A DNA stretch of 64,000 nt from Candidatus Methylomirabilota bacterium. GTDB taxonomy: Bacteria > Methylomirabilota > Methylomirabilia > Rokubacteriales > CSP1-6. The notes below the pieces were generated by a model. It made no database searches, was not told the origin of the DNA, and worked only from the letters and a program-made list of their open reading frames with translations. The first letter of the stretch is position 1. Each line of letters opens with the position of its first letter. Position numbers and translations under genes: made by a program. This document shows, one piece after another, positions 24,509 through 27,230 of this stretch. Location: NCBI GenBank assembly GCA_036506275.1, contig DASXSB010000054.1:32840-96839 (forward strand), written 5' to 3'.

Positions 24509-25180
24509 ATGTGGGGGACTTCGCGAGCTAAGCTGGTCATGCCGACGGCGGAGACCGCGCTCAGAGGCCGTGCGGAGAAGATGCCGGTGCCCGCCGCTCA
24601 TTTCGTCAACGGGCGCCCGCTGGCGCCGCCGTTCCCCGCCGGTCTCGAGCGCGCGATGTTCGGTCTCGGTTGCTTCTGGGGCGCCGAACGGAAGTACTGG
24701 ACGGTGCCCGGCGTGTTCACTACCGCGGCCGGCTACGCGGGCGGCCTCACGCCGAACCCCACGTACGAAGAGGTGTGTAGCGGCCGCACCGGTCACAACG
24801 AAGTCGTGCAGGTCGTATTCGATCCCCGCGCCGTCGACTACGGGACACTGCTCAAGATCTTCTGGGAGAGCCACGATCCCACGCAGGGCATGCGGCAGGG
24901 CAACGACGTCGGGACGCAGTACCGCTCCGGAATCTACGTGTACGGACCCGAGCAGCGTCGTCTCGCGGGAGCCTCACGCGACGCCTACCAGCGCGTCCTG
25001 ACGGCCGCCGGCTATGGGCCCCTCACCACCGAGATCCTGGACGCGCCGGAGTTCTACTACGCGGAGGCGTATCACCAGCAGTACTTGGCGAAGAATCCGA
25101 ACGGATACTGCGGCCTCGGCGGCACCGGCCTCGCGTGTCCGGCCGGGCTCGCCGAGGCAGCGGAGGGAAGCGGGCGCTAA
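24509..25180 (+). CDS. msrA: Peptide methionine sulfoxide reductase MsrA.
   Basis: GLGCFWGAE catalytic Cys motif. GGGAGG lies 5 nt upstream of the ATG. Confidence 0.9.
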
Positions 25181-26085
25181 ACGCCTGAGCTCTTCGGCCG
25201 GCGATACCGGCGAAGCGCCAGGCCCACGAGCCCGGACCCGAGAAGCGCCAGCGTCGTCGGCTCGGGCACGCCCGCCGGCGGCGGCGTCGGGCCTCCATCC
25301 GGAGGCGGAACCGGGGCGAGCGACAGATCGAACCAGATGTGGTGGTTCTGGACGATCCCCGAGATGCCGTTCTGCAGCGACCCCTGGAGAACCTTCCCGT
25401 TCTGGTTGCCGTCGCCGAAGCCGACGGCGGCCGGGTTGCCGCCGAAGCCGCCGCTGCCGCCGCTCGCGTCACCGGTCTCCCACGTCATGCCCTTGTAGAA
25501 GAAGCCGATGTTGCCCTCCCCCGCCGGGACCGTGAAGCCGGGGCCCCGGACGACGAGCTGGAAGGCATTGAGCTTGTCGTCGTGGGAGTCGAAGTAGCCG
25601 ACGTTGTCCCACGTGACGATGATCTCGTTCGCAATGTCCGTGCGCAGATGCATCACGCCGCTGAGGGCACCCCGCGTGTCGACGTCCGCGAAGAACGGGC
25701 TGATGATCGGCTGCGCCGCGCCCTGCGGTCCGGACGGGGTGAAGGCCGCGAGGCCCGAATTGGGCCCCAGCGTGATGTTGCCGTTGTTGTTCGCCGAGAA
25801 CACCGTGTACGTGTTGCCGAAGAACGGGAGCGAGAACCCGAGAGAAATGTTCTGCTGGAACCCGTCATCGTTGCGGCCCGTAGCGAGACCGACATTGGCA
25901 GCGCTGCCGCCACCGTTGGTCACCACTACCGCCCCGATGCCGCCCCCGATGAGATCGGTGTAATACGTGGTCGACGGAATCAGCGCGCTATTGGGAATGA
26001 TGTCGACAACGGCCTGGGCGGGCACTGTCGCCGCCAGGAGCAATGCAGTAAAGCCGAGGACCCCGAGCACTTTCGTGACTCTCAT
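25177..26085 (-). CDS. Secreted NIDO-like domain protein with a C-terminal PEP-CTERM sorting signal (paralog 1).
   Basis: GGGAG RBS. Signal peptide ends ...[18 protein letters not shown] resembles the nidogen-like (NIDO) signature. C-terminal [24 protein letters not shown]. Confidence 0.85.
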
Positions 26086-26333
26086 AAGAGGCGTCTCCCT
26101 GTTCGCAATGTTCGCCGACGAAGCGACTGTTGGAAAACCGTGCATAGAACGCGCCGACCTTGTAAATACAGGGGAAAATGCTTTGGTACGACCAATTGGA
26201 CGCGGTATCTGAAAACTTTCCCGACGGCGCTCTAAGGGCGGGGCGAGCGAGGGATTACTCCGGATTGCGGCGGGACCGACGCTCAGTGCGCCGGCCCCGC
26301 CGTGATGGCACGGAACGATCGTCGGCTAGATCG

Positions 26334-27230
26334 TCACCGTTTCGGCCGGCGGTACCGGCGAAGCGCCAGTCCGAGCAAGCCTGAGCCGACCAGCGCGATC
26401 GTTGCCGGCTCCGGCACCCCCGCCGGGGGCGGAGTGACGCCATCCGGAGGCGGAATGGGCGCCAGCGAGAGATCGAACCAGATGTGGTGGTTCTGGACGA
26501 TCCCCGAGATGCCGTTCTGCAGCGACCCCTGAAGCACTTTCCCGTTTTGCTGGCCGTCGCCGAAGCCGACGGCGGCCGGGTTGCCGCCGAAGCCGCCGCT
26601 ACCGCCGCTCGCGTCACCGGTCTCCCACGTCATGTTCTTGTAGAAGAAGCCGATGTTGCCCTCCCCCGCCGGGACCGTGAAGCCGGGGCCCCGGACGACG
26701 AGCTGGAAGGCATTGAGCTTGTCGTCGTGGGAGTTGAAATAGCCAACGTTGTCCCACGTGACGATGATCTCGTTCGCAATGTCGGTTCGTAGATGCATCA
26801 GGCCGCTGCCCGCGCCCCGCGTGTCGACGTCTGCGAAGAACGGGCTGATGATCGGCTGCGTCGCGCCCTGCGGTCCGGCCGGGGTGAACGCCGCGAGACC
26901 CGAATTGGGCCCCAACGTGATGTTGCCGTTGTTGTTGGCGGAGAACGCGGTGTACGTGTTGCCGAAGAAGGGGAGCGAGAACCCCAGGGCAATGTTCTGC
27001 TGAAAACCGTCGTCGTTGCGACCGGACGGATCTCCGACGTTGGCGGCGCTGCCACCCCCGTTGGTCACCACCACGGGTCCGATCCCGCCACCGATCTGGT
27101 CGGTGTAGTACGTCGTCGACGGGATCAGCGCACTGTTCGGAATGATGTCGACGACGGCGCCGGCCGGGACCGCCCAGCCGACGACGAGGACGGTGAACGC
27201 AATGAACCCGAGACTCTTCCTTTTACCCAT
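26334..27230 (-). CDS. Secreted NIDO-like domain protein with a C-terminal PEP-CTERM sorting signal (paralog 2).
   Basis: About 90% identical to paralog 1 at the protein level. GGGGAGG RBS. C-terminal [24 protein letters not shown]. Confidence 0.85.
   Translation of the reverse strand: MGKRKSLGFIAFTVLVVGWAVPAGAVVDIIPNSALIPSTTYYTDQIGGGIGPVVVTNGGGSAANVGDPSGRNDDGFQQNIALGFSLPFFGNTYTAFSANNNGNITLGPNSGLAAFTPAGPQGATQPIISPFFADVDTRGAGSGLMHLRTDIANEIIVTWDNVGYFNSHDDKLNAFQLVVRGPGFTVPAGEGNIGFFYKNMTWETGDASGGSGGFGGNPAAVGFGDGQQNGKVLQGSLQNGISGIVQNHHIWFDLSLAPIPPPDGVTPPPAGVPEPATIALVGSGLLGLALRRYRRPKR

What the first reader, a model, noticed from the sequence alone, without database searches (positions are those of the whole stretch)
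25177..27230. Tandem, near-identical NIDO-like PEP-CTERM secreted paralogs undergoing apparent gene conversion
Two adjacent minus-strand genes, 302 and 298 aa, encode proteins about 90% identical. Several nucleotide stretches are 100% identical over more than 100 bp in the central/C-terminal coding region. The N-terminal signal peptides and 5' regions have diverged. Each protein has a signal peptide, a domain with the NIDO-like signature [13 protein letters not shown], Gly-rich [10 protein letters not shown] repeats and a PEP-CTERM anchor. Each gene has its own strong RBS. NIDO-like domains in bacteria are scarce and functionally unexplored. Recent tandem duplication of an exosortase substrate suggests selection for dosage or antigenic/adhesive variation.
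Basis: seen in the sequence. Interest (0 to 1): 0.6.

Follow-up and report, generated by a model that had tools for sequence, protein, structure and literature searches.

The report
Old tandem surface-protein genes kept alike
Two neighbouring genes for secreted, cell-surface-sorted proteins in a soil Methylomirabilota genome are an old duplicate pair whose middle parts are repeatedly copied onto each other (gene conversion). This is a clean but ordinary example of a well-known process, in a widespread protein family of unknown function.

Summary
Gene A (25177-26085, minus strand, 302 aa) and gene B (26334-27230, minus strand, 298 aa) are 88% identical in protein and 84% in DNA. Both pass Pfam NIDO (about 63 bits, cut-off 25) and PEP-CTERM.

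Some details are overstated:
- The longest exact DNA run is 98 bp, not several runs over 100 bp.
- The Gly-rich stretch is one variable loop inside the NIDO match, not repeats.
- The family is not scarce: 3,844 representatives at 50% identity, in many phyla.

Gene conversion is strongly supported, but "recent tandem duplication" is wrong.
- In a second population (L004/L085) the same pair sits between the same neighbours. Signal peptides and upstream regions group by position (A with A, B with B).
- Codons 51-275 group by genome: 78 sites against 2, and silent sites over codons 51-250 give 22:0.
- Two further lineages carry a decayed remnant of gene B.

So the pair is older than the lineage split (flank dS about 0.5), and the core tract was homogenised later (dS 0.11). 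Purifying selection (dN/dS about 0.05-0.2) argues against antigenic diversification. A separate assembly with 2 SNPs shows the same tandem, so an assembly artefact is unlikely. Function remains inferred: exosortase-sorted matrix or surface protein.

The parts
25177..26085 (-). Gene A (downstream copy), 302 aa, NCBI HEY3065912.1. It has a signal peptide, a NIDO-family beta-rich domain, a Pro-rich linker and a PEP-CTERM tail.
   Evidence: ORF. Pfam NIDO 63.8 bits and PEP-CTERM 29.2 bits. The start at 26085 is supported by the SD GGGAG at -14..-10, by orthologue starts and by the 302-aa calls of JGI and NCBI.
26334..27230 (-). Gene B (upstream copy), 298 aa, NCBI HEY3065913.1, with the same architecture as gene A.
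   Evidence: ORF. Pfam NIDO 62.1 bits and PEP-CTERM 28 bits. Accession.
26011..26085 (-). Signal-peptide codons 1-25 of gene A (A-type: [25 protein letters not shown]). This part was not homogenised with gene B.
   Evidence: DNA identity is 53% to B but 68-75% to c2, L2 and L3. Quartet sites are 10 for positional orthology against 3 for the concerted grouping.
27156..27230 (-). Signal-peptide codons 1-25 of gene B (B-type: MGKRKSLGFIAFTVLVVGWAVPAGA).
   Evidence: DNA identity is 71% to the upstream copy c1 of the L004/L085 population and 53% to gene A.
25261..25935 (-). Region of gene A (about codons 51-275) that evolves in concert with gene B.
   Evidence: Quartet sites in codons 51-275 give 78 concerted against 2 other. 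Silent-only sites in codons 51-250 give 22:0:0. Both window copies share a 2-aa insertion, and both L004/L085 copies share a 2-aa deletion.
26415..27080 (-). Matching concerted region of gene B.
   Evidence: Same analyses as for gene A.
25325..25638 (-). Youngest conversion tract in gene A. It is 96.2% identical to B 26470-26783 and contains the exact runs of 98, 62, 48, 38 and 33 bp.
   Evidence: dS for codons 151-250 is 0.11, against 0.48-0.50 for the flanking nitroreductase between lineages.
26470..26783 (-). Youngest conversion tract in gene B, the partner of A 25325-25638.
25201..25269 (-). PEP-CTERM sorting signal of gene A, residues 273-295 ([23 protein letters not shown]...).
   Evidence: PF07589 and TIGR02595 matches. 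The motif, hydrophobic helix and basic cluster are visible in the sequence.
26349..26417 (-). PEP-CTERM sorting signal of gene B, residues 272-294 ([23 protein letters not shown]...).
26268..26302 (-). G+C-rich 15-bp hairpin starting about 30 nt after the stop codon of gene B. It has no T-run and is a likely transcript end for B.
   Evidence: Minimum-free-energy fold of 26086-26340. A comparable hairpin-forming sequence sits at the same place in L004, L002, L003 and L165. The consensus terminator scan found none.
26086..26195 (-). Conserved promoter/leader block upstream of gene A. It includes TTTACA at -81..-76, TATGCACGGTTTTCCAACAG and the SD.
   Evidence: It aligns across five lineages with long invariant runs, while silent sites between those lineages have dS 0.5-1. 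No Rfam match and no sigma-70 consensus.
26211..26225 (-). Copy of the motif GTCGGRRAASTTYYC upstream of gene A (-140..-126).
   Evidence: There are 3 matches in the 64 kb, all upstream of these two genes, against 0.11 expected. The motif is conserved in L001-L004. The pattern was derived from these same sites.
27341..27386 (-). Two copies of the same motif upstream of gene B (27341-27355 and 27372-27386).
26105..26119 (-). Degenerate fourth copy of the motif in the leader of gene A (CGTCGGCGAACATTGCGAAC).
   Evidence: It aligns with the distal gene B site with a score of 12, against a shuffle mean of 2.0 and maximum of 7.
27402..28025 (-). Nitroreductase gene, the conserved upstream neighbour used as a synteny anchor and dS calibrator.
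   Evidence: Pfam annotation in L002-L004, tblastn and dS.
24509..25180 (+). msrA (PMSR), the convergent downstream neighbour. It overlaps the gene A stop by 4 nt and serves as a synteny anchor.

Best explanation
Genes A and B are an ancient tandem pair of single-gene units. Each has its own upstream region, ribosome-binding site and signal peptide.

What they encode:
- Each encodes a Sec-exported protein of about 27 kDa when mature.
- The mature protein is one NIDO-family beta-rich domain, a proline-rich linker and a PEP-CTERM tail.
- By what is established for PEP-CTERM proteins, the tail holds the protein in the inner membrane until an exosortase cleaves at the PEP motif. The protein then passes to the cell surface or the exopolysaccharide matrix. 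This step is inferred here, because the exosortase is not in the window.

How the pair evolved:
- The duplication happened before the divergence of at least four related Methylomirabilota populations.
- Since then, recombination between the copies has repeatedly overwritten the part that encodes the mature domain (about codons 51-275).
- The most recent tract is about 314 bp and is 96% identical.
- The signal-peptide codons, the upstream regulatory DNA and the extreme 3' end escaped and still group by position.
- Both copies are under purifying selection.

Most likely consequence: one interchangeable product expressed from two separately evolving control regions, giving dosage or condition-specific expression. 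This is inferred.

The upstream copy is dispensable. Two sister lineages lost it through a deletion of about 0.76 kb.
For: Shown:
- Domains and signals.
- Synteny. The order nitroreductase, B, A, msrA is found in the window and in L001. It is also found in the composite L004/L085, whose two contigs overlap at 99.76% over 1234 bp.
- Positional orthology at the 5' ends. Signal-peptide DNA identity is 0.71 for wB-c1 and 0.68-0.75 for wA against c2, L2 and L3, but 0.53 for wA-wB. The region upstream of A aligns across five lineages.
- Concerted interior. Quartet sites give 78:2 in codons 51-275 and 10:3 the other way in codons 1-25. Silent-only sites give 22:0:0 in codons 51-250 and 0:1:5 in codons 1-50. 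Lineage-specific indels are shared by both copies of a genome.
- Timing. dS between wA and wB is 0.11 (codons 151-250) and 0.27 (codons 101-150). The flanking nitroreductase has dS 0.48-0.50 between lineages.
- Loss of B. The 540-bp spacers of L002 and L003 contain the start of the B upstream region. They then hold a decayed 3' end of a B-type gene (blastn to the c1 coding end, E 9e-18, plus a GGxGGF remnant), followed by the A upstream region.
- Purifying selection. dN/dS is about 0.05 (codons 26-100) and about 0.2 (codons 151-250).
- Possible ongoing exchange. The only SNP in gene A between the two assemblies (25716) switches A to the B state. The allele P0122 carries three further B-state residues.
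- Four PEP-CTERM ORFs lie in the 64 kb.
- The single-gene layout with 171-bp and 248-bp upstream regions resembles the general PEP-CTERM pattern of single-gene operons with large upstream regions (>200 nt) described by Haft et al. 2006 (PMC1569441); only the 248-bp region exceeds 200 nt.
Against: - No exosortase was found among about 40 ORFs of the window, so sorting is inferred from the signal alone.
- In codons 26-100 the dS between A and B is about 1.0, as high as between lineages. Homogenisation there is old or partial, and only 4 silent sites support it.
- The B-like alleles of A could be retained ancestral states or assembler mixing, not fresh conversion.
- Neighbouring genes are not conserved across 45 loci, so context gives no functional hint.
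- Separate transcription of A and B is inferred from a hairpin and conserved upstream blocks, not shown.
Confidence: 0.8

Rival explanations
1. Recent tandem duplication. The copies are alike because they split recently, and the ends diverged fast.
For: High overall identity, with a core tract at 96%. A separate betaproteobacterial lineage also has a tandem pair, 79% identical, so duplication does recur in the family.
Against: - Signal peptides and both upstream regions are orthologous by position between populations whose flanking genes have dS about 0.5.
- A B-gene remnant survives in the single-copy lineages.
- dS between A and B ranges from 0.11 to 1.0 or more along the gene, which a single recent event cannot give.
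Confidence: 0.04
2. Independent duplications of a single ancestral gene in each lineage, which would mimic concerted evolution.
For: Within-genome copies are more alike than between-genome copies. L002 and L003 have one copy.
Against: - The inter-copy spacer, the A-type and B-type signal peptides and the junctions are homologous between lineages.
- L002 and L003 carry a decayed B 3' end, so their single copy is derived.
- Silent sites in codons 1-50 follow positional orthology, 5 against 0.
Confidence: 0.04
3. Assembly artefact: an expanded or chimeric repeat made by the assembler from strain variants of one gene.
For: The source is a metagenome-assembled genome. One SNP between assemblies falls on a site that distinguishes the paralogues. 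Read-level data cannot be checked here.
Against: - A JGI contig (L001, 4164 bp, 2 SNPs) spans nitroreductase, B, A and msrA with the same structure.
- The same architecture occurs in a population about 25% divergent in protein, recovered from two samples.
- The two copies have unrelated 5' regions, each conserved in other lineages. Strain variants of one gene would not show this.
Confidence: 0.03
4. Parallel amino-acid evolution without DNA exchange. The two proteins co-adapt, for example as partners in one assembly, so the same residues are selected in both copies of a genome.
For: Twenty-eve concerted amino-acid sites in codons 51-275 (sum 9+8+8+3). In codons 26-100, dS between the copies is about 1 while dN is only 0.05.
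Against: - Silent sites in codons where all four proteins agree also group by genome, 22:0:0.
- Exact DNA runs of 98 and 62 bp.
- Shared indels.
Selection on protein sequence does not explain identical synonymous codons.
Confidence: 0.05

Closest known systems
PEP-CTERM / exosortase (EpsH, XrtA) protein-sorting system (Haft et al. 2006, PMC1569441)
   Same: - N-terminal signal peptide.
- An extreme C-terminal VPEP motif, a hydrophobic helix and an Arg-rich cluster, matching PF07589 and TIGR02595.
- Several PEP-CTERM genes in the genome (4 in this window).
- Single-gene units with sizeable non-coding upstream regions (171 and 248 bp).
   Different: - The exosortase and EPS genes are not in the window.
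- The organism is Methylomirabilota, not Proteobacteria.
- The proteobacterial upstream signature (motif 1, about 63 nt, then a sigma-54 -24/-12 site) is not recognisable by eye. TTTACA is present at -81 of gene A, but I saw no GG-N10-GC site. This was not tested with a model.
Pfam NIDO (PF06119), the nidogen-like extracellular domain of animal nidogen, mucin-4, alpha-tectorin and SNED1
   Same: The sequence profile is matched well above the gathering score in both proteins. The protein is extracellular.
   Different: - Here NIDO is essentially the whole mature protein of a small bacterial PEP-CTERM protein, not one module of a large animal matrix protein.
- No function is known for either.
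- A structural comparison with animal NIDO could not be run, because the AlphaFold library was unavailable.
Concerted evolution of bacterial paralogues by gene conversion (from my own knowledge, not checked here: tufA/tufB in Salmonella and E. coli, rRNA operons, and the Neisseria opa and pil families)
   Same: - The interior of the genes is homogenised within a genome.
- The flanks keep positional orthology.
- Tracts of different ages form a mosaic.
   Different: Unlike Neisseria pil/opa, the outcome here is homogenisation under purifying selection, not generation of antigenic variants. Unlike tuf, the genes are adjacent and encode a non-essential surface protein, and one copy has been lost in sister lineages.
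Characterised PEP-CTERM proteins: floc-formation PepA-type proteins (Aquincola, PMC9850573), the zinc-scavenging exoprotein ZepA (Anabaena, PMC10957091), and exosortase CrtB-dependent biofilm and motility phenotypes (Nostoc, PMC12188702)
   Same: Same export and sorting signals. These cases show that such proteins end up in the matrix or exoproteome and act in aggregation, biofilm formation or nutrient capture.
   Different: There is no sequence relationship outside the 24-residue tail. NCBIfam family models (PepA, XDP1, THxN and others) match only the tail and stay far below their cut-offs. The role of the NIDO-type family is untested.

Membership tests
Pfam NIDO (PF06119) | Profile HMM match above the curated gathering score | tested here: met
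   63.8 bits for A and 62.1 bits for B, against a cut-off of 25. E values are 2.7e-17 and 9.1e-17, each with two matched stretches. The best stretch covers residues 155-243 and profile positions 82-167 of 186. Precomputed NIDO hits are also recorded on the JGI gene calls.
Pfam NIDO (PF06119) | Same three-dimensional fold as animal NIDO domains | not testable with these tools
   The AF2 model is confident (pLDDT 85, pTM 0.78). The AlphaFold-database libraries were unavailable. The PDB holds no recognisable relative.
PEP-CTERM exosortase substrates | C-terminal PEP motif, then a transmembrane helix, then a basic cluster at the very end of the protein | tested here: met
   PF07589 scores 29.2 and 28 bits (cut-off 20.7). 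TIGR02595 scores 23.8 and 22.8 bits (cut-off 16). The tails read [26 protein letters not shown] and [27 protein letters not shown].
PEP-CTERM exosortase substrates | N-terminal Sec signal peptide | tested here: inconclusive
   By inspection each protein has a basic n-region, a hydrophobic core and an AxA site (AQA|V and AGA|V). The model shows a helix at residues 3-18. No signal-peptide predictor was available.
PEP-CTERM exosortase substrates | The genome encodes an exosortase (EpsH/Xrt) and EPS biosynthesis genes | not testable with these tools
   None was found among about 40 ORFs of the 64-kb window scanned with Pfam. The rest of the genome is not available.
PEP-CTERM exosortase substrates | Multiple PEP-CTERM proteins per genome | tested here: met
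   Four ORFs in the window end in a PEP-CTERM-like tail: 25177-26085, 26334-27230, 46246-46962 and 57175-58014. The last two were found by regular expression only.
PEP-CTERM exosortase substrates | PrsK/PrsR-type upstream signature (motif 1 ending in TTTACA, a spacer, then a sigma-54 -24/-12 site). This is a proteobacterial subset only. | tested here: inconclusive
   TTTACA lies at -81..-76 of gene A and is conserved in relatives. I found no GG-N10-GC element by eye. No model of the published motifs was available.
Concerted evolution by gene conversion | Paralogues within a genome are more alike than positional orthologues in the interior, while the flanks keep orthology | tested here: met
   Segment identities. 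Quartet counts are 78:2 in codons 51-275 and 3:10 in codons 1-25.
Concerted evolution by gene conversion | The signal is present at synonymous sites, which excludes convergent protein selection | tested here: met
   Silent-only quartet sites give 22:0:0 in codons 51-250. The run of 43 codons without a silent change has p=0.0002.
Concerted evolution by gene conversion | The duplication predates the compared lineages | tested here: met
   The inter-copy spacer and the A-type and B-type signal peptides are shared. A B-gene remnant is present in L002 and L003.

The most novel reading that the evidence does not exclude
The stand-alone NIDO plus PEP-CTERM proteins could be a conserved, structurally novel matrix component with a specific biochemical activity. 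Candidates are a Ca2+-dependent or glycan-binding protein, or a glycan-modifying protein.

Points in favour:
- The family is 60-70% identical across Methylomirabilota, Acidobacteriota, Nitrospirota and Proteobacteria.
- No solved structural relative was found.
- The invariant acidic motifs NDD, DVD, WD and WETGD hint at a defined binding or catalytic site.

On this reading, the conserved pair of control regions carrying a shared palindromic operator would be a dedicated regulatory circuit. Conversion would then keep two differently regulated copies functionally interchangeable.
Probability: 0.12. Interest if true: 0.5.

Novelty: new member of a known kind. Interest (0 to 1): 0.27.

Why it matters
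The practical value is modest.

- It is a well-resolved natural example of concerted evolution in an uncultivated soil phylum. The tract boundaries stop at the signal-peptide cleavage site and at the sorting tail. It also shows that apparently recent duplicates in MAGs can be old pairs kept alike by conversion. That affects paralogue dating, strain-resolved assembly and read mapping.
- It flags a very widespread, highly conserved and uncharacterised bacterial NIDO/PEP-CTERM family with no solved structural relative. This family is a reasonable target for anyone studying exosortase cargo or the origin of the animal NIDO domain.

It does not open a new kind of system.

Tried and rejected
- Exosortase or EPS genes nearby. 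About 40 window ORFs were scanned with Pfam and all look like housekeeping genes.
- Conserved gene neighbourhood across 45 loci holding a homologue at least 50% identical. Only shadow ORFs of the gene itself recur, and no neighbour occurs in more than 5 loci.
- Literature linking NIDO with PEP-CTERM or exosortase gave no paper holding both terms. ZepA (PMC10957091) is a different PEP-CTERM protein.
- Sigma-70 promoter and intrinsic terminator consensus scans found none.
- Rfam on 24900-27600 found none.
- The exact window protein A is absent from the gene-position index, so the source contig itself could not be fetched. Its accession was recovered from the cluster look-up instead.
- I considered a sigma-54 promoter in the conserved TGCACGGTTTTCCAAC and GGCGAACATTGCG stretches. 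I rejected it because the GG/GC spacing is 8 rather than 10 nt. This was by inspection only.
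Full report
**What is there**

The window is about 70% G+C. Two adjacent minus-strand ORFs lie at 25177-26085 (gene A) and 26334-27230 (gene B).
- Gene A is open back to an ATG at 26145. The start at 26085 has a Shine-Dalgarno (GGGAG at -14..-10) and gives a typical signal peptide. It matches the starts of all orthologues and is the start used by JGI and NCBI.
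- The proteins are 302 and 298 aa and 88% identical. The coding DNA is 84% identical.
- Both pass Pfam NIDO (63.8 and 62.1 bits, cut-off 25) and PEP-CTERM (29.2 and 28 bits, cut-off 20.7). NCBIfam recognises only the 24-residue tail (TIGR02595). No curated full-length family covers them.
- They are public already, as HEY3065912.1 and HEY3065913.1. Both are named 'PEP-CTERM sorting domain-containing protein' and come from a Methylomirabilota MAG contig of 109,891 bp.

- The similarity begins at the signal-peptide cleavage site and ends at the stop codon. The flanks do not align.
- The longest exact runs are 98, 62, 48, 38 and 33 bp, so 'several runs over 100 bp' is overstated.
- The best tract, A 25325-25638 = B 26470-26783, has 12 mismatches in 314 bp.
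- Differences are clustered far beyond chance. The longest-run permutation gave p<5e-5. The run of 43 identical-residue codons with no silent change has p=0.0002. Silent differences number 7 of 97 in codons 151-250, against 26 of 68 and 16 of 41 towards the ends.
- The '[10 protein letters not shown] repeats' are a single stretch inside the NIDO match. It is the only low-confidence loop of the model. It is expanded in P0003 and absent in the betaproteobacterial homologues.

**The duplication is real**

A separately assembled JGI contig (L001, 4164 bp) covers nitroreductase, B, A and msrA. It differs from the window at 2 of 4164 bases.

**It is old, and conversion is real**

Syntenic loci from related populations decide this.
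- L004 and L085 overlap at 99.76% over 1234 bp. Together they give nitroreductase, c1, a 305-bp spacer, c2 and msrA.
- In the signal-peptide codons, B groups with c1 (0.71 DNA identity). A groups with c2, L2 and L3 (0.68-0.75). A against B is only 0.53.
- The spacer upstream of A aligns across five lineages.
- In the mature-domain codons the copies of one genome are closer to each other than to any copy elsewhere: 0.79-0.96 for the window pair and 0.80-0.92 for c1/c2, against 0.69-0.82 between lineages. Both window copies share a 2-aa insertion, and both L004/L085 copies share a 2-aa deletion.
- Quartet site patterns give 10 positional against 3 concerted in codons 1-25. They give 78 concerted against 2 other in codons 51-275.
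- I then restricted the count to codons where all four proteins have the same residue. There the silent sites give 22:0:0 concerted in codons 51-250 and 0:1:5 towards orthology in codons 1-50. This excludes convergent protein selection as the cause.
- dS between A and B is 0.11 (codons 151-250), 0.27 (101-150), 0.73 (251-end) and about 1.0 (26-100). The flanking nitroreductase has dS 0.48-0.50 between the window and the other lineages. The central tracts were therefore exchanged after the lineages split, and the pattern is a mosaic of events of different ages.

**Loss of gene B elsewhere**

L002 and L003 have a single A-type gene between nitroreductase and msrA. Their 540-bp spacer has three parts:
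- the first ~35 nt of the B upstream region;
- a decayed last third of a B-type gene (blastn to the c1 coding end, E 9e-18, plus a GGxGGF remnant);
- the A upstream region.

So the tandem is ancestral and B was deleted there. L165 begins inside the 3' end of an upstream PEP-CTERM ORF (...RYRRAKTLTF*), so it probably keeps the pair.

**Hints of continuing exchange**

The only SNP inside gene A between the two assemblies is at 25716 (codon 124, Ala to Thr). It changes A to the B state. Another A-type allele, P0122, has three of its six mature-region differences equal to B. These could equally be retained post-conversion states or assembler mixing.

**Selection**

dN/dS between the copies is about 0.05 (codons 26-100) and about 0.2 (codons 151-250). 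Between lineages dN is 0.10-0.20, three to five times that of the nitroreductase (0.035-0.042). So the protein evolves fairly fast but under purifying selection. Nothing supports antigenic diversification.

**The family**

It is not scarce.
- At least 1,453 clusters at 90% identity were found among only 8,000 scored candidates.
- There are 3,844 representatives at 50% identity with E<=1e-3, and 2,612 with E<=1e-10. Some are giant multi-domain proteins.
- Full-length relatives 57-71% identical occur in Acidobacteriota, Nitrospirota, Alpha- and Betaproteobacteria and Geobacteraceae, and one 53% identical in the cultured Nitrosovibrio tenuis Nv1.
- Tandem or nearby second copies are rare: 3 of 95 loci with enough flank. 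One is an independent betaproteobacterial pair that is 79% identical.
- No neighbour gene is conserved across 45 loci. This fits the single-gene-unit habit of PEP-CTERM genes described by Haft et al. 2006 (PMC1569441).

**Structure and function**

- The AF2 model is confident (pLDDT 85, pTM 0.78). It is mostly beta, with N- and C-terminal helices for the two membrane signals.
- Invariant acidic and aromatic motifs (N72-D73-D74, D134-V135-D136, W159-D160, E190, W202-E203) suggest a defined binding or catalytic site. This is inference.
- No paper links NIDO with PEP-CTERM.
- Characterised PEP-CTERM proteins act in flocculation, biofilm formation or as released exoproteins (PMC9850573, PMC12188702, PMC10957091). 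That is the basis for inferring a matrix or surface role.
- No exosortase lies in the window. Two further PEP-CTERM ORFs do.

**Regulatory DNA (partly followed up)**

- Each gene has its own upstream region, 248 bp for A and 171 bp for B.
- A 15-bp G+C hairpin starts about 30 nt after the stop of B. No canonical terminator or sigma-70 promoter was found, and there is no Rfam match.
- The last ~110 nt before A are strongly conserved in five lineages.
- A near-palindromic motif, GTCGGRRAASTTYYC, occurs three times in the 64 kb. All three are upstream of these two genes, against 0.11 expected. A degenerate fourth copy lies in the leader of A, and the motif is conserved in the close relatives. The pattern was derived from these same sites, so the count is only indicative.

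**Verdict**

This is a real, cleanly documented case of concerted evolution of an old tandem pair of exosortase-type surface-protein genes. They belong to a large uncharacterised NIDO-family clade. Its 'recent duplication', 'variation' and 'scarce' claims are wrong. It is a new member of known kinds, of modest interest.

Noticed in passing
window 26211-26225, 27341-27355, 27372-27386 (minus strand); degenerate copy at 26105-26119: The near-palindromic motif GTCGGRRAASTTYYC occurs only upstream of the two NIDO/PEP-CTERM genes in the 64 kb: 3 hits against 0.11 expected. It is conserved in the close relatives L001-L004 and is a candidate operator for a shared regulator. The pattern was derived from these same sites, so the statistic is only indicative.
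   Followed up: partly
window 26086-26195 (minus strand): The ~110 nt before the gene A start are far more conserved across five lineages than silent sites in the adjacent genes. The block includes TTTACA at -81..-76 and an invariant TGCACGGTTTTCCAAC. There is no Rfam match, no sigma-70 consensus, and no correctly spaced sigma-54 site by eye.
   Followed up: partly
window 46246-46962 (+) and 57175-58014 (+): Two further ORFs (238 and 279 aa) have N-terminal hydrophobic signal-like segments and PEP-CTERM-like tails (VPEPGTLAFVTGGVLVGIARAVRGRR... and VPEPTTLFLLGSALVGLGGRRL...). Neither has a Pfam domain at E<=1e-5. That makes four putative exosortase substrates in 64 kb.
   Followed up: partly
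L002 5660-6207; L003 1825-2362: Related populations with a single NIDO gene carry, in the spacer after the nitroreductase, a decayed remnant of the last third of the upstream (B-type) copy. The remnant includes its terminator-like hairpin.
   Followed up: yes
window 25716 (gene A codon 124); protein P0122: Variation between assemblies and alleles of gene A falls on sites that distinguish the paralogues, and it switches A to the B state. This fits ongoing conversion, retained post-conversion states, or assembler mixing.
   Followed up: partly
L005-L027 (species-representative genomes), for example L009 on a 1.1-Mb alphaproteobacterial contig: Full-length homologues are 57-71% identical across different phyla, while orthologues within Methylomirabilota are only 75-82% identical. 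This suggests horizontal transfer or unusually strong constraint for a surface protein.
   Followed up: no
L013 6981-7853 and the upstream copy; L115 285-1154 and 1364-2236: An independent tandem pair in a betaproteobacterial lineage is 79% identical with a 209-bp spacer. Both copies lack the Gly-rich GGSGGFGG loop, which shows the loop is dispensable.
   Followed up: partly
window 25177-25180: Gene A and the convergent msrA overlap by 4 nt at their stop codons. The overlap is conserved in L003 and L165.
   Followed up: no
window 28058-31401 (minus strand): Next to the nitroreductase lie a VWA-domain protein and an AAA+ ATPase of the MoxR/sigma-54-activator-like type, followed by a Band 7/SPFH gene. 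This arrangement is conserved in L002 and seems unrelated to the NIDO genes.
   Followed up: no
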